A DNA stretch of 18,508 nucleotides from a virus (Duplodnaviria > Heunggongvirae > Uroviricota > Caudoviricetes): IMG/VR virus record IMGVR_UViG_2660238511_000004, positions 1 through 18,508 of that record. One strand, given 5' to 3'. The translations under genes and the position numbers were made by a program. The notes under the pieces are model-generated. The model was not told the DNA's origin. It did no database searches and saw only the letters and a list, made by a program, of their open reading frames with translations. Shown here in pieces: positions 1,525 to 18,508 of the stretch; the stretch's first letter is position 1; each line of letters starts with the position of its first letter.

Positions 1525-1600
1525 TGGTGCTGGTTAACGGACTTGAACCGCTACCCATTCGCTTACAAGGCGACTGCTCTACCATTGGAGCTAAACCAGC
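1525..1600 (-). tRNA. tRNA-Thr (anticodon UGU), phage-encoded
   Basis: Hand-folded cloverleaf on the minus strand: acceptor stem GCTGGTT/AACCAGC (7 bp), D arm GCTC/GAGC, anticodon loop CUUGUAA (U33, anticodon UGU, A37), T arm AGCGG-TTCAAGT-CCGTT, discriminator A, encoded CCA. One G-A mismatch at the base of the anticodon stem. Confidence 0.6.
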
Positions 1601-1605
1601 ATGTT

Positions 1606-1680
1606 TGGCGGGACAGCGTGGACTCGAACCACGATAAGAAGGTTAACAGCCTTCCGTAATGACCTTTATACGACTGACCC
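1606..1680 (-). tRNA. tRNA-Asn-like (anticodon GUU), possibly degenerate
   Basis: Minus-strand cloverleaf: anticodon stem GAAGG/CCTTC, loop CUGUUAA (anticodon GUU), T arm CGTGG-TTCGAGT-CCACG, encoded CCA. One mismatch in the acceptor stem (4-68 T-T) and one in the D stem, so function is uncertain. Confidence 0.5.
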
Positions 1681-2923: not shown

Positions 2924-3107
2924 CTCTTTCACTCCATCCGCGATGAACCATGAGAACGTCGTTGACGATGGCGTGCATTTTCCCGTCTTTATCATCAACG
3001 TATTTTCTGACCGTACCGCGACTACATTTCAGTCTGCGTGCTACTTCTGTCTGGTTTCCGTATGCTTCAACGAGCATGTCTGGAATGGTTTTTACTGAGA
3101 ACGTCAT
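2901..3107 (-). CDS. ninH: NinH
   Basis: 68 aa product matching recalled lambda NinH ([37 protein letters not shown]...), a Fis-like HTH protein. Confidence 0.9.
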
Positions 3108-3715
3108 GCGGCCTCACTTCTGCTGTTTCGCAGGTCTTTGAGTTTCTGCTGATACTCCGCCTTGATGGCCCTGCACTCTTCGACAGTCCAGCGATGGCGG
3201 TTATGGTTTGATTCGATTTCGTCTACTGCTTCCTGCCCGATGCGGCTAATCAGTTCGACGCGATACGGAACGAGATTTCCGCTTTTGTGCTGGTTGCACA
3301 CCACGCATTGCTTGTGAATATTGCGTTCATCAAATCGGAGTTGAGGCGCCGCAGCAGTTGTCCGGTAATGCCCGGCATCCCACTGAGCAGACGTGAGCGT
3401 TCCGCACGAGATACATGGTAAGTCGCGGTCTCTTTCTCTGATGAAGGCGTTTACGGCTTGTTGGGCTTGTTTAATCCAGTAACTGCGGGGCTTTAAGGCG
3501 AGTTTTCGAATCTTAAGTTTATCTTTCTGTTTCTGCTCCTCTCGTCGTCGTTTCTTCTCTGCTGCCTTTTCCGCTTTTTCGCGTTCTTTGCTTCGTCGTT
3601 CGAGTGCTATCTTGGTTCCACACTCTGGAGAGCACCACCACTGATTGGCGAATGCAGGGTGAAACCATTCCCGACATTCATCGTTTTTACATCGTCTTCG
3701 CGCTGGTTTAGCCAT
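3104..3715 (-). CDS. ninG: NinG (Rap recombination endonuclease)
   Basis: 203 aa product matching recalled lambda NinG/Rap ([33 protein letters not shown]...). 4-bp overlap with ninH. Confidence 0.92.
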
Positions 3716-3878: not shown

Positions 3879-4057
3879 CTTGTTTTCCTCGCACGTTCTC
3901 TAAGCCACCGGATATCCCACAGGTGAGCCGTGTAATTGAAGGTTTTTACGTCAGATTCTTTTGGGATTGGCTTGCGTTTATTTCTGGAGCGTTTCGTTGG
4001 AAGGTATTTGCAGTTTTCGCAGATGATGTCGGTGATACTTCGTCGCTGTCGTCTCAT
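3875..4057 (-). CDS. ninE: NinE
   Basis: Internal Met of track ORF 3875..4147 gives the 60 aa product [60 protein letters not shown], matching recalled lambda NinE. Confidence 0.85.
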
Positions 4058-4581
4058 GCCGCCCTCCTGACGCCCTGCCCGATCGCCATCAATGCCGCTT
4101 TGGATACGGTAGTAAACATCCGTCGAGGACTGATGAACGGTCGCCAAATCAGCAGCATGGAGCCTTTGCTGTTTCCCTTCTTCTCCAACCCTGTCGATGG
4201 TTCGATAAAATTAATCCGTCCATCAGTGATAATGCGAACTTCGTCGACACTCTCCAGAGCCTTGCTGAACCATCCGACTGATATATCCTCTGGCACAAGC
4301 ATAACTACCGTCTGTCGCTGTTGTATGCACTGCTCAGCGGCTTTTTCCACCCACGGCCTGATATTGCTGTACGGTGGGTTATTCCAGATTGCACCGTGGC
4401 TTACCCACTCAGAATTGAGCGCGTCGTCGGCCTAAGTTAGCCAGTGAGCACACAGAGCATTTTTGTCGCTCGCTGCCGAATCCAGCCAGAATCCAAACTC
4501 AATATCCAGTGCATCAAAAAGCCAAAGCGGCGTTTGCCAGCAGTCCTTGTCGTGTGCTGGCGTATTTGATTTGATAGTCAT
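4054..4581 (-). pseudogene. Phage Dam-type DNA N6-adenine methyltransferase interrupted by an in-frame amber (TAG) codon at 4432-4434
   Basis: Track ORFs 4432..4641 (N-terminal part) and 4054..4350 (C-terminal part) are in the same frame, separated only by TAG. The joined product reads ...DKNALCAHWLT*ADDALNSEWVSHGAIWNNPPYSNIRPWVEKA... and contains the NPPY catalytic motif. Likely start is the ATG at 4581, forming an ATGA overlap with the ninB stop. Confidence 0.7.
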
Positions 4582-5018
4582 GCAGCCCGATCTCCCCATC
4601 TCGCTTTCCACTCCAGAGCCAGTCTCGCTTCGTCTGACCACTTAACGCCACGCTCTGTACCGAATGCCTGTATAAGCTCTAATAGCTCCGCAAATTCGCT
4701 TACACGCATCCTGCTGGTTGACTGGCCTATTACCACAAAGCCATTCCCGGCAAGGTTAGGAACAACGTCCTGCTGCTTTAATGCTGCTGTAAAAACGCAC
4801 TTCCAGCTTTCTGCATCCAGCCAGCGACCATGCCATTCAACCTGACGAGAGACGTCACCAAGGCAAGCCCAAAGCTTTCGATTCTGGTCTAAGCTGCGGT
4901 TGCGTTCCTGAATGGTTACTACGATTGGTTTGATTGGGTCTGGAAGAATTTGCTGGATAGCTTGAATGGCGTTCTGCTGATGAATTGGGCTTCTTAGTTC
5001 AAACGTTCGTTTCCTCAT
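4578..5018 (-). CDS. ninB: NinB (recombination protein, ORF146-like)
   Basis: 146 aa product closely matching recalled lambda NinB (…HQQNAIQAIQQILPDPIKPIVVTIQERNRSLDQNRKLWACLGDVSRQVEWHGRW…). GAAGGTGAGC lies ahead of the ATG. Confidence 0.93.
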   Translation of the reverse strand: MRKRTFELRSPIHQQNAIQAIQQILPDPIKPIVVTIQERNRSLDQNRKLWACLGDVSRQVEWHGRWLDAESWKCVFTAALKQQDVVPNLAGNGFVVIGQSTSRMRVSEFAELLELIQAFGTERGVKWSDEARLALEWKARWGDRAA

Positions 5019-5253
5019 GGCTCACCTTCTGCACGCATGGATTAATTAACGCCAAAATAGCTTCTGGTTTCTCAATAACATCGAACCGCTCACCACTTGC
5101 CATTCTTACAATCGTAAATCCGGCATCAAATAGGGTTTCGATGTTGTCAGAATTAACGTACAAGGGCTCATATGCACTTCTGGTGCTTTCTATCGCGCTT
5201 GTGCTTGGTGGCTGATAGATGCTGCATCGCATGGTTAATTTGATAAATGACAT
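4999..5253 (-). CDS. Hypothetical protein (84 aa)
   Basis: ORF with AAGGAG 8 nt upstream of the ATG; tightly packed (4-bp gap to the upstream gene, 20-bp overlap with ninB). No recognisable motifs. Confidence 0.5.
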   Translation of the reverse strand: MSFIKLTMRCSIYQPPSTSAIESTRSAYEPLYVNSDNIETLFDAGFTIVRMASGERFDVIEKPEAILALINPCVQKVSHEETNV

Positions 5254-5257
5254 ATAC

Positions 5258-5566
5258 TCACTCCTTCACTTTGATTCCAGCGGCGCGGATAGCCTCTACA
5301 TCGCTTTCGTATTGCGATTCTGCACCTGAGTCATAGCCAATGTGATAATCACCGGGAAGTGGGCCTTTCTTTGGCTTTTGCAGCTCAATCTCGATAGCTG
5401 CTCGCGATGCCTGCCATAAAGTCCACCACTCATTTAAGGAGTGACGAATATCCATGCTTGAAAATGCGAAGTACCTATCACCATTTCTTGCCTCGGTTAT
5501 CATCTCGAATGGTAATCTCAATTTTTTGGCAACGTATTCCTCAAACTGCTTTCTTGATTCGCCCAT
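5258..5566 (-). CDS. Hypothetical protein (102 aa)
   Basis: ORF with GGGGA upstream of the start; same orientation and packing as its neighbours. No recognisable catalytic motif. Confidence 0.5.
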   Translation of the reverse strand: MGESRKQFEEYVAKKLRLPFEMITEARNGDRYFAFSSMDIRHSLNEWWTLWQASRAAIEIELQKPKKGPLPGDYHIGYDSGAESQYESDVEAIRAAGIKVKE

Positions 5567-5577
5567 ATCAATCCCCG

Positions 5578-5778
5578 TTATGACAGGTTAATTTTCACCC
5601 AACCCTTCCCACGCACATTTGCAACAAGCCCTTTCTTTCTCAGGTATTGCATACGGCGATCGATGGTTTCGATATACATTCCATTGCTCCGCCATTTAAG
5701 CCAGATATCAAAAACAGGTGTTGGTCTTTCACTCAGCATTGAAAGAATGTTTTGATCTAATTTTTCGTACTTGCTCAC
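5578..5778 (-). CDS. Hypothetical small protein (66 aa), basic, possibly DNA-binding
   Basis: ORF overlapping the upstream gene by 4 bp (translational coupling). Basic C-terminal half (RRMQYLRKKGLVANVRGKGW) looks winged-helix-like. Confidence 0.45.
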   Translation of the reverse strand: MSKYEKLDQNILSMLSERPTPVFDIWLKWRSNGMYIETIDRRMQYLRKKGLVANVRGKGWVKINLS

Positions 5779-6101
5779 AAATACCCTCTCTCACTTAATC
5801 GCGCCCACGCTTCGTTAAACTCTTCTCTAGTTGCGCCGGATTTTCTTTCTTCGAACATCATGCATTCGCTGATGTCTCCCCATGACTTTGGTCGCTTTTC
5901 AGCGAACAGATCATCCCATTCGAATACCCAGCGGCCTGATTTTCGGTAGTGGTAAATGGTCAGCCATGTTGTGCTGTTCGCTGGATACCCATAGAGAACT
6001 TCGACTTTTTGATCACGGTCTTTATGCTTTTTCAGCAGGATAAAGCCAGCAACCAGCGAAGCTCCGGCAAGAATGATGATTGGAATTTGCCAGTCAGCCA
6101 C
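5775..6101 (-). CDS. Hypothetical membrane-anchored protein (108 aa; one N-terminal TM helix)
   Basis: GTG start preceded by GGGAGAGGGAAG. N-terminal hydrophobic segment IPIIILAGASLVAGFILL followed by KKHKDRD (positive-inside). Directly downstream of the helicase terminator. Confidence 0.5.
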   Translation of the reverse strand: MADWQIPIIILAGASLVAGFILLKKHKDRDQKVEVLYGYPANSTTWLTIYHYRKSGRWVFEWDDLFAEKRPKSWGDISECMMFEERKSGATREEFNEAWARLSERGYL

Positions 6102-6111
6102 ACTTCCCTCT

Positions 6112-6147
6112 CCCCCAAATAAAAAGGCCTGCGATTACCAGCAGGCC
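6112..6147 (-). terminator. Rho-independent terminator downstream of the helicase gene
   Basis: Minus strand: GGCCUGC-(8 nt loop)-GCAGGCC, a perfect 7-bp GC-rich stem, followed by UUUUUAUUUGGGGG. Confidence 0.6.
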
Positions 6148-6176
6148 TGTTATTAGCTCAGTTATGTAGATGGTCA

Positions 6177-7613
6177 TCAGAATCCTCCTTTCTTCTTGGA
6201 CTGCGGTTCCTCGCGTTCACGGCGGCGCATTTCAGCAGACTGTTGGTCTGTGTCATAAATAGCGCCATTTGCCTGAATGCAATACACCGTGCCGGTATTG
6301 CCATGACGATTGAGACGAAGGATTAGTTCGGTTTCACCAGGTGGAACACTGTCATCAAAAGCACCTTCACGATGGATCCCCACCCAATAATCGCAATCCT
6401 GTTCAATCTGCCCTGTATCTCGTGAGTCACTTGGTAATGGGCGTTTATTGGTTCGGCTTTCCAGTGCGCGGTTAAGCTGTGTCAGAAGCACAACAACGCA
6501 ATCAAGCTCTTTGGCAAGGTTCTTCAGTCCTTTGGTGATCATGCCGTAAGCAAGGTCGTTGCGATCGGCCTTCTCAGCGGTCATTAGTGTCAGGTAATCG
6601 ACCAGAATCATGCCAACACATCCTTTTTCTCGCTTGATTCGACGGCTTTCGCTGACGATTTGAGCCAGAGATAATCCCGGCGTGTCGTCGATGTAAAGCA
6701 TGTCGATTTCACTCAAGCGATTAGCTGTTTCGATCGCCCTGTTGAAGTCACCATCGTAATCACCCTGATAGCCGTCATCAGCGTCATTTGTCGCCGGAAG
6801 GTAAAAAATATTCGGGTTAACACCTGACTTCTGTCCTACCAGTTTTTCCAGTATCTGGTCACCGGGCATTTCAAGGCTGAACATCAGAGCGGGCTTTTTC
6901 TCATGCACTGCGCAGTTGATTGCCATCTGGCTGTATAGCGTCGTTTTCCCCATCTTAGGGCGAGCGCCAATGACAAACAGAGAGCCTTTCACCAGACCTT
7001 TCGGTGACAGCATCCTGTCCAGCGATGGGATCCCTGTGCTCATTCCTCGTTGTTCGCCTGACGGGTCAAATCGCTTCTCAAGGTCGCTAACCCAGTCTTC
7101 CATGACCTCACCAAATGAGCGAAGGCCGCGACGCGATCCGGTTTTTGCATGGTCTGTCAGTTGCGTGAAAATCGACTGAATAGCTTCGTACTTCTGTGTT
7201 GCAGTCATTCCGTTGCGGGAATAGAGCAATTCCGTCGCTTCAGTCATGCGGTTGATGGCGTAGCGTTCCATTGCGGTTTCGCGAACCTGCATTGCATAAG
7301 CAACGATGTTTGCTGCGCTTGGCGTGTTCTTTGCGATCTCAGCGATATAAGCAAAACCGCCAACAGACGCCGTTAACGATTTACGCTCCAGTTCATCGAA
7401 AAGCGTCAGGCCATCTACTGGCTTTTGCTCACGGTGCATTCTGGTTATTTCTTCGAAAATGATTTTGTGTGGTCGGCTGTAAAATGAATCAGGCTTCAGC
7501 ATCGCCAGAACTTTCTGGACGCGCTCACTGCTGTCATCATCCAGAAGCAATCCACCAATCACCGCCTGCTCTGCCTCGATGCTATGGGGCGGCGCATAAA
7601 AATTATCGGTCAT
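6177..7613 (-). CDS. Replicative DNA helicase, DnaB family (P22 gene 12-like)
   Basis: DnaB-type N-terminal motif (HSIEAEQAVIGGLLLD), Walker A (GARPKMGKTT) and the overall DnaB architecture. Start set at the ATG with GAGGGTGAA upstream (7613); the track ORF begins 15 nt earlier at GTG. Overlaps the end of the O-like gene. Confidence 0.9.
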   Translation of the reverse strand: MTDNFYAPPHSIEAEQAVIGGLLLDDDSSERVQKVLAMLKPDSFYSRPHKIIFEEITRMHREQKPVDGLTLFDELERKSLTASVGGFAYIAEIAKNTPSAANIVAYAMQVRETAMERYAINRMTEATELLYSRNGMTATQKYEAIQSIFTQLTDHAKTGSRRGLRSFGEVMEDWVSDLEKRFDPSGEQRGMSTGIPSLDRMLSPKGLVKGSLFVIGARPKMGKTTLYSQMAINCAVHEKKPALMFSLEMPGDQILEKLVGQKSGVNPNIFYLPATNDADDGYQGDYDGDFNRAIETANRLSEIDMLYIDDTPGLSLAQIVSESRRIKREKGCVGMILVDYLTLMTAEKADRNDLAYGMITKGLKNLAKELDCVVVLLTQLNRALESRTNKRPLPSDSRDTGQIEQDCDYWVGIHREGAFDDSVPPGETELILRLNRHGNTGTVYCIQANGAIYDTDQQSAEMRRREREEPQSKKKGGF

Positions 7614-8430
7614 CGTGTTCACCCTCACGAACTTTCAGGTAGGTATTATCGTTAAGCAGGAAATCAAATCCCTTTTTGTGCCAGACGGTTCCGCGTTGAT
7701 GGTTTGGGCGCTCTTCGAACATCCATCGGCAATTTTCGCCAACGTAGCTCAAATAATTTCTCCAGTCCTGCATCGTGAACCCATGCCCGTCAAGCTGGCG
7801 GGTTATCACTCCGGCTTTGCGCCAGAACGTTCGGATCTGGTTTTTACGCTTGTCATTCAGTGCGCGGATTCTTGGCGCTTCAGGAAGGATTTCGTGGTAA
7901 GCATCGACAACATCCTGACAGCTAACGGAAGGTTTTTTCTTGTCAGACTTTTTGTCTGCTGTGGCACTCTCTAATACGTCAGTATTAGAGATATTATTTA
8001 TATTATTGTTTATGGACAACCGTTGGACAGCCGTTGGACAATCTCCGCTGAGAGCCGCGCCATTACTGGTGTTTGCGTTGGACAAACGTTGGACAACCGT
8101 TGGACAATTTTTTGCCTGAAAATCGTCATATTTAACGATTGTAAACAGGCTAAATTTCTTCCCCATCGAGCAAATATTAAGCATCCCTTTCGACTCAAAA
8201 GTCCGTAATAAGCTCCGAACTTTGTTGTCGGGGATGAATGTTTCTCTGACCAGAGACGGGCGTCCAGTTATCATCTGACCGCGATCAACAGTTATCGGAC
8301 CGATATCCGTATTGACGACAGTAGATTCGTGATTAGCCTTGAGGATTAAGTGAAGCCAAAGATGTACTGCCTGAGAGTCCTTATAGAGCCTGCTGTCCAT
8401 AAACTGGCGGTGTATAGAGACATACCCCAT
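7603..8430 (-). CDS. Replication initiator protein (lambda O / P22 gp18 analogue) containing the origin
   Basis: Lies between cII and the helicase and contains the iteron array and AT-rich tract in its linker (protein repeats CPTVVQRLSN, CPTAVQRLS, then INNNINNISN). Start set at Met22 (8430), which has AGGAGG 8 nt upstream; the track ORF starts at 8493. Confidence 0.8.
   Translation of the reverse strand: MGYVSIHRQFMDSRLYKDSQAVHLWLHLILKANHESTVVNTDIGPITVDRGQMITGRPSLVRETFIPDNKVRSLLRTFESKGMLNICSMGKKFSLFTIVKYDDFQAKNCPTVVQRLSNANTSNGAALSGDCPTAVQRLSINNNINNISNTDVLESATADKKSDKKKPSVSCQDVVDAYHEILPEAPRIRALNDKRKNQIRTFWRKAGVITRQLDGHGFTMQDWRNYLSYVGENCRWMFEERPNHQRGTVWHKKGFDFLLNDNTYLKVREGEHDDR
7983..8106. repeat. 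Phage replication origin: five direct iterons (GTTGGACA core) plus an adjacent AT-rich tract, inside the O-like gene
   Basis: GTTGGACA at 8022-8029, 8033-8040, 8077-8084, 8088-8095 and 8099-8106, with a partial copy at 8013-8019. AT-rich tract ATTAGAGATATTATTTATATTATTGTTTATGG at about 7985-8016. This is the lambda-like ori layout. Confidence 0.75.
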
Positions 8431-18306: not shown

Positions 18307-18508
18307 AATAGCGGGTAAAATATTTCTCACATCTAAAAAACACCATTCCAATCAATCCCCTGCTGCTTCAAGTAGATGTCTGCAGGGAACTGGTTATTCT
18401 CATTTTTTATTTGTGACATTGTGGTTGTTGTGCGACAGACATTGCTATTTGAACCGCCCCGGGTTTCCTGGAGAGTGTTTTATCTGTGAACTCAGGCTGC
18501 CAGATCAT

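What the first reader, a model, noticed from the sequence alone, without database searches (positions are those of the whole stretch)
4999..6101. Four-gene cluster of small uncharacterised proteins between the helicase terminator and ninB
Between the replication genes and ninB, where lambda carries ren, there are four co-oriented, tightly packed genes: a 108 aa N-terminally membrane-anchored protein, a 66 aa basic protein, and 102 aa and 84 aa proteins. They start immediately after a strong intrinsic terminator, and each has its own RBS. None matches a family I can name. This position is a known variable cargo site in lambdoid phages, and a membrane anchor plus a small putative DNA-binding protein plus two partners is consistent with an exclusion, abortive-infection or toxin-antitoxin-like module.
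Basis: inference. Interest (0 to 1): 0.6.

Follow-up and report, generated by a model that had tools for sequence, protein, structure and literature searches.

The report
Four unrelated small phage accessory genes
These are the already-annotated genes 46 to 49 of Shigella phage Sf6: four real but dispensable small early genes that are reshuffled one by one among related phages, so they are a stack of separate cargo genes of unknown function rather than one four-part defence module.

Summary
The four ORFs are real, but they lie on the minus strand. The window is 100% identical to Shigella phage Sf6, except that it lacks the IS911 copy. The ORFs are Sf6 genes 46-49, annotated in 2004. A published Sf6 mutant lacking most of gene 46 and all of 47-49 is viable and lyses faster.

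The tR2 terminator, the Shine-Dalgarno sites, the gp46 membrane helix and the basic gp47 are all confirmed. The module idea is not supported:
- Among 113 distinct tR2-to-ninB intervals in related prophages, all four genes co-occur in 3. In 5,426 complete E. coli genomes, all four are contiguous in one.
- Distant relatives of gp46 and gp47 never have the other three genes nearby, and some sit in virulent phages or conjugative plasmids.
- No internal promoter-like site was found, and there were no PADLOC hits.
- gp46 occurs without gp47 in 26 intervals, which argues against a toxin/antitoxin pair.

Family assignments are weak to moderate:
- gp49 belongs to a phage branch of the FlbD/SwrD family.
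- gp48 relatives carry PF26207, and the family is itself a shuffled two-module protein.
- gp47 is only weakly winged-helix-like.
- gp46 has a confidently modelled domain with no PDB match.

Best reading: independent delayed-early nin-region cassettes. Interest is low.

The parts
6177..7628 (-). Upstream flank: DnaB-like replicative helicase (Sf6 gene 44)
   Evidence: 483-aa ORF. Annotated in Sf6 as a DnaB-like replicative helicase.
6125..6148 (-). Intrinsic terminator tR2. Its T-run (6124..6115) leads straight into the gp46 Shine-Dalgarno sequence.
   Evidence: 8-bp stem with 6 G-C pairs plus TTTTATTT tail. Annotated as tR2, within boundary sequence bsq6, in Sf6.
6094..6177 (-). Gene 45: a 27-aa hydrophobic NinA-like peptide ORF that overlaps the terminator and the gp46 start
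   Evidence: Sf6 annotation. phrog_5907, E 1.8e-19. Kyte-Doolittle 19-residue mean 2.04. Present in nearly all related loci whatever the neighbouring genes.
5775..6101 (-). Gene 46: 108 aa. N-terminal transmembrane helix (residues 5-27) plus a highly conserved ~75-aa alpha/beta domain (YGYP..TWLTIYH.R...W.FEWDDLF..GRPKSW).
5578..5778 (-). Gene 47: 66 aa, basic (pI 10.2). Possibly a winged-helix protein. Its start overlaps the gp46 stop (GTGA).
   Evidence: ORF. phrog_7185. Only sub-threshold hits, all to the recognition-helix and wing region of HTH_Crp_2, Rrf2/IscR, Csa3-HTH and GntR. Relatives occur in virulent and temperate siphophages and in 537 large conjugative plasmids.
5258..5566 (-). 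Gene 48: 102 aa, helical. Its family carries PF26207, and PGAP names some relatives 'phiTE_015 family protein'. The gene is an intragenic mosaic.
4999..5253 (-). Gene 49: 84 aa, acidic. Belongs to a phage branch of the FlbD/SwrD family. Its 3' end overlaps the ninB start by 20 nt.
   Evidence: Pfam FlbD PF06289: 23.8 bits against a gathering score of 24.7. Homologues score 25.5 (HK022), 26.3 (Tbat2_3), 33.2 (ZF40) and 19.4 (RAH1). phrog_8458. PGAP and IMG call it an FlbD/YlzI family protein.
4578..5018 (-). Downstream flank: ninB/orf recombination mediator (Sf6 gene 50)
   Evidence: Pfam NinB, E 6e-54.

Best explanation
The region is the promoter-proximal end of the nin region of phage Sf6. 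It holds four independent, individually translated, non-essential accessory genes (Sf6 genes 46-49), stacked in a recombination hotspot between the tR2 terminator and ninB.

Shown:
- They have no recognisable promoter of their own and lie directly behind tR2.
- Each has its own Shine-Dalgarno site. The gp47 start overlaps the gp46 stop.
- They assort as separate cassettes. Neighbouring genes in this slot share short conserved junctions, described below.
- Gene 48 is itself rebuilt from interchangeable N- and C-modules.

Junctions. Genes that follow gp48 start with VSMS and overlap its conserved ..AAGIKVKE end. Genes that precede ninB end with ..EETNV. tR2 and gene 45 form the left boundary.

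Inferred:
- They can only be transcribed from PR once the N-like antiterminator (gp37) reads through tR2. That places them in the delayed-early stage of lytic growth or induction.
- gp47 is translationally coupled to gp46.
- Each protein acts alone during lytic growth, on host physiology or host defences.

Proposed roles, all inferred:
- gp46: a cytoplasmic, phage-specific alpha/beta domain held at the inner membrane by an N-out/C-in anchor. Relatives in other phages lack the anchor.
- gp47: a small basic protein, probably a winged-helix DNA binder.
- gp48: a small helical two-module protein.
- gp49: an SwrD/FlbD-fold protein that probably forms rings.

None of these activities has been tested.
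For: Identity and annotation. The window is 100% identical to Sf6 over the region and over the whole window apart from IS911. Genes 46-49 are annotated there.

Dispensability. Sf6 isolate 3-7 carries a deletion of 30436-34441 (genes 46-56). It is viable and lyses faster (PMC5630979).

Operon position. tR2 lies at 6148..6125, and no sigma70-like site was found in 4400-6700 (0 found against 3.2 expected). The T-run abuts the gp46 Shine-Dalgarno sequence.

Independence.
- Phage records: 420 match some part of the region, and only the two Sf6 records match 80% or more.
- E. coli genomes: 490 of 5,426 match part, and 1 matches 80% or more.
- Among 113 distinct intervals there are about 68 with gp46, 42 with gp47, 26 with gp46 but no gp47, 14 with gp49, and 3 with all four.
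- The same block sits behind a lambda P + ren replication module in E. coli E2 and behind a DnaB-type helicase elsewhere.
- Divergent gp46 and gp47 relatives lack the other genes nearby.

Lytic-phase role.
- gp46-domain relatives occur in jumbo phage Goslar, the 112-kb phage KookSpook, Shuimuvirus IME207, and large metagenomic phage contigs directly after DNA polymerase A.
- gp47 relatives occur in early regions of siphophages.

Generic nin features. Tight packing with ATGA-type overlaps is generic to nin regions (PMC8022706).

Cassette junctions and the gene 48 mosaic.
Against: - No function has been demonstrated for any of the four genes, so 'acts in lytic growth on the host' is inference from position and distribution.
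- The promoter scan only recognises sigma70 consensus sites, so a weak or non-canonical promoter active in lysogens cannot be excluded.
- In the lambdoid context gp47 was found only next to gp46 (48 of 48 loci), with a 4-nt overlap. This leaves room for a gp46-gp47 functional pair.
- Those copies are 95-99% identical, so the co-occurrence counts are confounded by recent common descent in both directions.
- The published deletion mutants also removed IS911 and other nin genes, so they say nothing specific about genes 46-49 beyond dispensability.
Confidence: 0.7

Rival explanations
1. One reading: the four genes form one exclusion, abortive-infection or toxin-antitoxin-like module. It would combine a membrane effector, a DNA-binding regulator and two partners, and would protect the lysogen.
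For: - gp46 has a membrane anchor.
- gp47 is small, basic and weakly wHTH-like.
- The slot is variable.
- The four genes are tightly packed.
Against: - All four co-occur in 3 of 113 intervals, 1 of 5,426 E. coli genomes, and only Sf6 among phage records.
- Distant homologues never keep the partners nearby.
- No PADLOC, toxin or antitoxin families match.
- No promoter was found, and the genes lie behind tR2 in a lytic operon.
- Family members occur in obligately virulent phages.
- gp46 stands alone or with an unrelated 78-aa gene in 26 intervals.
- Tight packing is generic to nin regions.
Confidence: 0.04
2. gp46 and gp47 are a functional two-gene unit. For example, a membrane-anchored protein might sequester or control the small DNA-binding protein. 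gp48 and gp49 would then be unrelated neighbours.
For: - The 4-nt stop/start overlap (GTGA) suggests translational coupling.
- In lambdoid prophages every gp47 locus has gp46 immediately upstream (48 of 48).
- The exact sequences of both are each found on at least 1000 contigs.
Against: - gp46 occurs without gp47 in 26 complete intervals: alone, or followed by an unrelated 78-aa gene.
- gp47 relatives at 37-70% identity in other phages and plasmids have no gp46 nearby. gp46 relatives at 42-69% identity have no gp47 nearby.
- The lambdoid copies are 95-99% identical, so their linkage can be simple co-inheritance of one DNA block. That block often also carries the 5' half of gene 48.
Confidence: 0.15
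3. gp46, and possibly the other genes, is a replication accessory factor rather than a host-directed or defence-related protein. It might, for example, tether or modulate the phage replisome at the membrane.
For: gp46-family genes sit next to replication genes in several unrelated phage types:
- after the DnaB-like helicase in Sf6
- one gene after lambda-P in a lambdoid prophage (L237)
- directly after DNA polymerase A in large phage contigs (L241-243; in L244, HNH genes lie between)
- between primase/helicase and helicase in IME207

gp49 relatives also follow O/P or DnaB genes.
Against: - Early operons put many unrelated small genes next to replication genes.
- Other gp46 relatives sit elsewhere: after PhuZ in Goslar and near integrase in Pantoea prophages.
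- Deleting most of gene 46 together with 47-49 does not impair growth.
- The same gp46 allele follows both lambda-P-type and DnaB-type replication modules, so it is not matched to one replisome.
Confidence: 0.1

Closest known systems
nin-region accessory genes of lambdoid phages (lambda ren/ninA-ninI; P22 ninA-ninZ)
   Same: - Same operon position, between the replication genes and Q, behind tR2.
- Same tight packing with overlapping stop and start codons.
- Non-essential for lytic growth.
- Drawn from a large shuffled gene pool.
   Different: Genes 46-49 are not homologous to any named nin gene. Pfam finds NinB, NinE and NinG in the flanking genes but nothing of that kind in 46-49.
Lambda Ren (protection from Rex exclusion)
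   Same: A small dispensable gene at the end of the replication block, just before the nin genes.
   Different: - There is no sequence similarity.
- In E. coli E2, ren is present upstream of tR2 and the gp46-47-48 block downstream of it. The cluster is therefore an addition, not a replacement.
FlbD/SwrD (YlzI) family, Pfam PF06289
   Same: gp49 and its phage homologues match the FlbD profile over nearly its whole length. Three of the five tested exceed the gathering score. SwrD forms hexameric rings with a RemA/LytTR/ComK-like fold (PMC13232269).
   Different: - gp49 itself scores 23.8 against 24.7.
- It carries an extra ~20-residue N-terminal segment.
- It is encoded in a phage early operon, not a flagellar operon.
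- According to that paper, Escherichia has no SwrD.
- No flagellar role is plausible for a phage gene in an early operon of an enteric host that lacks SwrD.
- Ring formation by gp49 has not been tested.
PF26207 family (some members are named 'phiTE_015 family protein' by PGAP); 933W L0091; phrog_343
   Same: gp48 is 97% identical to a protein carrying PF26207. It matches phrog_343 at E 5e-28.
   Different: - The family has no known function.
- Neither PF26207 nor a phiTE_015 model is in the local Pfam and NCBIfam copies, so membership could not be re-scored here.
- The link between the PGAP name and PF26207 is my inference.
Type II toxin-antitoxin pairs and prophage exclusion genes (RexAB, SieA/SieB, HK97 gp15)
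   Same: A small membrane protein lies next to a small, possibly DNA-binding protein, with overlapping reading frames.
   Different: - No homology to these systems was found.
- There is no promoter of their own.
- The partnership is not conserved.
- The membrane protein occurs alone, and relatives occur in virulent phages.

Membership tests
nin-region accessory gene set of lambdoid phages | Located in the PR early-right operon between the replication genes and Q, downstream of tR2 | tested here: met
   Gene order is helicase, tR2, 46-49, ninB, ninE, ninF, ninG, ninH, ninI, Q. The terminator was confirmed.
nin-region accessory gene set of lambdoid phages | Dispensable for lytic growth | tested here: met
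   Taken from the literature, not from an experiment here. Sf6 isolate 3-7 (deletion 30436-34441, genes 46-56) is viable and lyses faster (PMC5630979).
nin-region accessory gene set of lambdoid phages | Tightly packed genes with overlapping stop and start codons, shuffled between phages | tested here: met
   GTGA overlap between genes 46 and 47, gaps of 11 and 4 nt, and a 20-nt overlap with ninB. About 30 gene orders among 113 intervals. This is described as generic in PMC8022706.
Known anti-phage defence systems (PADLOC-DB v2) | At least one protein matches a defence-system HMM | tested here: not met
   Only two chance-level hits, with E-values of 0.026 and 0.028.
Type II toxin-antitoxin module | A recognisable toxin or antitoxin domain | tested here: not met
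   No toxin or antitoxin family in Pfam or NCBIfam at E of 1 or below.
Type II toxin-antitoxin module | An obligate two-gene partnership conserved across homologues | tested here: not met
   gp46 occurs without gp47 in 26 complete intervals. Divergent homologues of each lack the other nearby.
Type II toxin-antitoxin module or lysogen-expressed exclusion gene | Own promoter that allows expression in the lysogen | tested here: inconclusive
   No sigma70-consensus site in 4400-6700 (0 found against 3.2 expected). A consensus scan cannot exclude weak or atypical promoters, and no transcript data are available.
Lambda Ren | Sequence homology to Ren | tested here: not met
   No Pfam or NCBIfam hit. 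A bona fide ren gene coexists upstream of the same block in E. coli E2.
FlbD/SwrD family (PF06289), for gp49 | Score at or above the Pfam gathering threshold (24.7 bits) | tested here: inconclusive
   gp49 scores 23.8 bits (E 3.4e-5), just below the threshold. Homologues at 38-92% identity score 25.5, 26.3 and 33.2, which pass, and 19.4, which fails.
FlbD/SwrD family (PF06289), for gp49 | Encoded in a flagellar operon and acting on motor output | tested here: not met
   gp49 is encoded in a phage early operon. SwrD is reported absent from Escherichia (PMC13232269).
FlbD/SwrD family (PF06289), for gp49 | Hexameric ring assembly | not testable with these tools
No SwrD chain was found in the local PDB copy.
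Winged-helix DNA-binding proteins, for gp47 | Significant match to a wHTH family profile or structure | tested here: inconclusive
   Only sub-threshold hits, and they consistently fall on residues ~17-63: HTH_Crp_2 at E 0.067, Rrf2 at 0.078-0.27, IscR at 0.016-0.3, Csa3-HTH at 0.15. A family profile did not improve on this.
PF26207 / 'phiTE_015 family', for gp48 | Match to the family HMM | not testable with these tools
   PF26207 is precomputed for 97%-identical P0059 and for all 120 listed relatives. The model is absent from the local Pfam and NCBIfam libraries, which returned no hits.

The most novel reading that the evidence does not exclude
gp46 may define an unrecognised, phage-restricted protein domain (YGYP..TWLTIYH.R...W.FEWDDLF..GRPKSW).

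- Its confident model has no PDB counterpart.
- Only 38 cluster representatives (50% identity) exist among 1.84 billion, and nearly all are small stand-alone proteins of about 75-135 aa.
- It recurs next to replication genes in lambdoid, large DNA-polymerase-A-encoding, Shuimuvirus and jumbo phages, sometimes membrane-anchored and sometimes not.

It could be a new host-takeover, counter-defence or replisome-modulating factor.

A second possibility is that gp49 is a phage SwrD-like ring protein aimed at a MotA-type stator or channel complex, or at nucleic acid, in a host that has no SwrD of its own.
Probability: 0.12. Interest if true: 0.5.

Novelty: already known. Interest (0 to 1): 0.18.

Why it matters
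The finding matters little as it stands. The genes have been annotated in a reference phage genome since 2004, and their dispensability was published in 2016. The supposed four-part system dissolves into independently shuffled cassettes.

The useful outcomes are negative or practical:
- Co-orientation and tight packing in a nin region should not be read as evidence of a functional module.
- The RefSeq label 'flagellar protein' on gp49 is a family-name carry-over, not a function.
- The gp46 domain, the phage FlbD/SwrD branch and the two-module gp48 family are well-defined ORFan families. They would be reasonable entries for phage accessory-gene screens.

Tried and rejected
Family scans (all four proteins)
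- Pfam, NCBIfam, PHROGs and PADLOC gave only unknown-function PHROGs plus the borderline FlbD hit for gp49.

PDB searches by sequence
- All four proteins against PDB gave nothing credible.
- Family profiles for gp47 and gp49 against PDB also gave nothing.

Structure models and fold searches
- gp46 against BFVD returned only its own homologues.
- The afdb50 library was not available.

Profile and name checks
- The gp46 profile against 1.84 billion representatives was meant to find informative domain fusions. It found none. The two long hits (3,904 and 380 aa) have 14 and 6 matched stretches each. I did not examine them and assume they are repeats or noise.
- I tried to confirm the name 'phiTE_015 family' and PF26207 for gp48, but the models are not in the local libraries and no paper mentions the name.

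Literature
- Searches for any functional work on Sf6 genes 46-49, phage FlbD, or accessory-gene screens found only the Sf6 deletion study and the SwrD structure preprint.

Readings considered and rejected
- gp46 as toxin with gp47 as antitoxin: rejected because gp46 occurs alone.
- The cluster replacing ren: rejected because ren coexists with it.

Other
- An Rfam scan found no RNA family in the region.
Full report
**1. What is there**

The four ORFs are real but lie on the minus strand:

| Gene | Coordinates | Length | Start codon |
|---|---|---|---|
| gp46 | 6101..5775 | 108 aa | GTG |
| gp47 | 5778..5578 | 66 aa | GTG |
| gp48 | 5566..5258 | 102 aa | ATG |
| gp49 | 5253..4999 | 84 aa | ATG |

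They lie between a DnaB-like helicase (7628..6177) and ninB (5018..4578; Pfam NinB, E 6e-54).

A megablast search shows the region is 100% identical to Shigella phage Sf6 (AF547987 / NC_005344). The whole window matches Sf6 at 100% in two pieces. The missing 1.25 kb is the IS911 copy.

The ORFs are therefore Sf6 genes 46-49. The Sf6 authors' GenBank record already annotates them, with these notes:
- Gene 47 is similar to pHCM1 0024c.
- Gene 48 is similar to 933W L0091.
- Gene 49 is similar to HK022 gene 60.

A 27-aa gene 45 (NinA-like; 6177..6094) overlaps the terminator. The authors marked this spot as mosaic boundary sequence bsq6.

The other parts of the observation also hold:
- The terminator is confirmed at 6148..6125.
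- Each gene has a Shine-Dalgarno sequence, read directly.
- The gp46 stop overlaps the gp47 start (GTGA).
- gp46 has a hydrophobic segment at residues 5-23, and gp47 has a pI of 10.2.

**2. Is it a module?**

I fetched 226 related loci from IMG/VR using each protein as an anchor. I then mapped all four proteins, gene 45 and ninB onto those loci and the annotated reference loci.

Among 113 distinct, complete tR2-to-ninB intervals there are about 30 gene orders. The common ones are:

| Gene order | Distinct intervals |
|---|---|
| gp46, gp47, gp48, with or without one other small gene | about 40 |
| gp46 plus an unrelated 78-aa gene | 19 |
| gp46 alone | 7 |
| a 68-aa two-TM protein, gp48, gp49 | 11 |
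| the same 68-aa protein plus gp48 | 10 |
| all four genes | 3 |

Wider searches agree:
- Of 50,697 phage records, 420 match part of the region. Only the two Sf6 records cover 80% or more.
- Of 5,426 complete E. coli genomes, 490 match part. Only one (strain GF43) has all four contiguous.
- The gp46-47-48 block sits behind a lambda P + ren module in E. coli E2 and behind DnaB-type helicases elsewhere. It is therefore neither a ren replacement nor tied to one replication module.

These lambdoid copies are 95-99% identical, so linkage by descent confounds the counts. For that reason I also looked at divergent homologues.

gp46 relatives (42-69% identity) occur in:
- a lambdoid prophage, one gene after lambda-P
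- Pantoea prophages, near the integrase
- large phage contigs, directly after DNA polymerase A
- Shuimuvirus IME207, between primase/helicase and helicase
- the 112-kb phage KookSpook
- jumbo phage Goslar

gp47 relatives (33-70% identity) occur in:
- early regions of virulent and temperate siphophages
- 537 large conjugative Klebsiella and Citrobacter plasmids

In none of these loci is any of the other three genes present within 1.5-3 kb. The four genes are therefore not a conserved system.

**3. How the stack is built**

Neighbouring cassettes share short conserved junctions:
- Genes downstream of gp48 begin VSMS.. and overlap the conserved gp48 end ..AAGIKVKE.
- Genes preceding ninB end ..EETNV, in the overlap with the ninB start.
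- tR2 and gene 45 (bsq6) form the left boundary, present in nearly every locus.

Gene 48 is itself mosaic. Its 54 distinct family proteins are built from 8 N-module types and 9 C-module types in 20 combinations. The modules join at W(Q)ASRAAIEI and are framed by conserved termini.

**4. Expression and dispensability**

No sigma70-like promoter was found between 4400 and 6700 (0 found against 3.2 expected). The terminator's T-run abuts the gp46 ribosome-binding site.

I infer that the genes are delayed-early. They would be transcribed from PR only when the N-like antiterminator overrides tR2.

Dover et al. 2016 (PMC5630979) isolated Sf6 mutants with nin deletions. Isolate 3-7 lacks 30436-34441, which removes genes 46-56. 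These mutants are viable and lyse faster. Genes 46-49 are therefore dispensable for lytic growth in the laboratory.

Tight packing with ATGA-type overlaps is described as a general property of nin regions (PMC8022706).

**5. What the proteins are**

*gp46*
- phrog_5903; no Pfam, NCBIfam or PADLOC match.
- In the family alignment the N-terminal hydrophobic segment is variable, and is replaced by a basic amphipathic segment in Goslar, KookSpook and IME207.
- The remaining ~75-aa domain is strikingly conserved, with 17 invariant columns.
- AlphaFold2 gives a helix at residues 5-27, then four strands and a C-terminal helix. Mean pLDDT is 85, about 94 over residues 31-60 and 82-97 over the rest of the domain.
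- A profile search of 1.84 billion representatives finds 38 proteins. All but two are small (73-133 aa) single-match proteins.
- A basic cluster (KKHKDRDQK) follows the helix, so I infer an N-out/C-in topology with a cytoplasmic domain.

*gp47*
- phrog_7185.
- Only sub-threshold hits, but they consistently fall on the recognition-helix and wing part of the Crp, Rrf2/IscR, Csa3 and GntR wHTH families.
- A family profile did not strengthen this. 'Winged helix' remains a plausible guess.

*gp48*
- phrog_343. Relatives carry PF26207, and PGAP calls some of them 'phiTE_015 family protein'. Neither model is in the local libraries.

*gp49*
- Pfam FlbD at 23.8 bits against a gathering score of 24.7.
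- Homologues in HK022, Tbat2_3 and ZF40 pass at 25.5, 26.3 and 33.2 bits.
- FlbD/SwrD was recently shown to form hexameric rings with a RemA/LytTR/ComK-like fold. A MotA interaction was predicted but could not be validated, and the family is reported absent from Escherichia (PMC13232269).
- gp49 relatives in other temperate phages also sit after the replication genes.
- The RefSeq product name 'flagellar protein' is a family label, not a function.

**6. Verdict**

- The 'four-part exclusion, abortive-infection or toxin-antitoxin module' part is not supported.

The best explanation is a stack of independent, non-essential, delayed-early nin-region cassettes, each acting alone during lytic growth (confidence about 0.7).

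A gp46-gp47 pair remains possible (about 0.15). The evidence for it is the overlap and the nested distribution. The evidence against it is gp46 occurring alone and the absence of the partnership among divergent homologues.

A replication-accessory role for gp46 is a weak lead that rests on gene neighbourhood.

The genes and their dispensability are already in the literature, and nothing here is a new kind of system. The only mildly novel residue is the gp46 domain and the phage FlbD/SwrD branch as well-defined ORFan families.

Noticed in passing
window 3104-3715 (minus strand); window versus Sf6 record 32876-34124: The window is Sf6 without the IS911 insertion. ninG is an intact 203-aa ORF (Pfam NinG, E 1.5e-91), whereas the reference Sf6 genome has it split by IS911. 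The window matches Sf6 at 100% in two pieces, and the missing ~1.25 kb is IS911.
   Followed up: partly
window 4054-4350 and 4432-4641 (minus strand): A phage Dam-type N6-adenine methyltransferase (PF05869) is split into two ORF fragments covering profile positions 1-47 and 77-167. This corresponds to the unannotated 'gene 51' pseudogene between ninB and ninE. Related prophages carry an intact methyltransferase at this position.
   Followed up: partly
window 5258-5566, and gp48-family genes in L006-L231: Gene 48 is an intragenic mosaic. Eight N-terminal and nine C-terminal module types are combined in 20 ways around a conserved W(Q)ASRAAIEI hinge, with conserved termini (MDESRKQFE.. and ..AIRAAGIKVKE).
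   Followed up: partly
related tR2-ninB intervals, e.g. L204 (77-283), L004 (923-1114), L143 (562-744): The same slot in related prophages often carries other very small predicted membrane proteins. Examples are a 68-aa two-TM protein, a 63-aa two-TM protein and a 60-aa hydrophobic protein, besides the hydrophobic 27-aa gene 45 and TM-anchored gp46. The slot seems enriched for small membrane proteins. No function was sought.
   Followed up: no
gene junctions at window ~5253-5262 and ~4999-5018, and equivalents in L004, L009, L015, L031, L036: Unrelated cassettes share short junction strings. Genes following gene 48 start VSMS/VSMT and overlap its stop. Different genes preceding ninB all end ..EETNV, in the overlap with the ninB start. 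These look like recombination linkers for cassette exchange.
   Followed up: partly
L241-L245 (metagenomic large phage contigs), L235 (IME207), L237: gp46-family genes lie next to or near replication genes in unrelated phage types: DNA polymerase A, primase/helicase and lambda-P.
   Followed up: partly
window 1528-1600 and 1609-1680 (minus strand): Two tRNA genes (Rfam tRNA, 61.5 and 55.3 bits) lie downstream of the Q region. They probably correspond to the Asn and Thr tRNAs reported for Sf6.
   Followed up: no
window 18391-18508: The last ~118 bases of the window were not part of the 100% match to Sf6 (the query match starts at base 119 of the reverse-complemented window). This may be a junction with different sequence. 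It was not examined.
   Followed up: no
L251 (Klebsiella phage vB_Kpn_RAH1, 2001-2225): A gp49 homologue that weakly matches the Pfam FlbD profile (19.4 bits, below the 24.7 cut-off) is annotated there as 'exclusion protein ren'. This is probably a position-based mis-annotation.
   Followed up: partly
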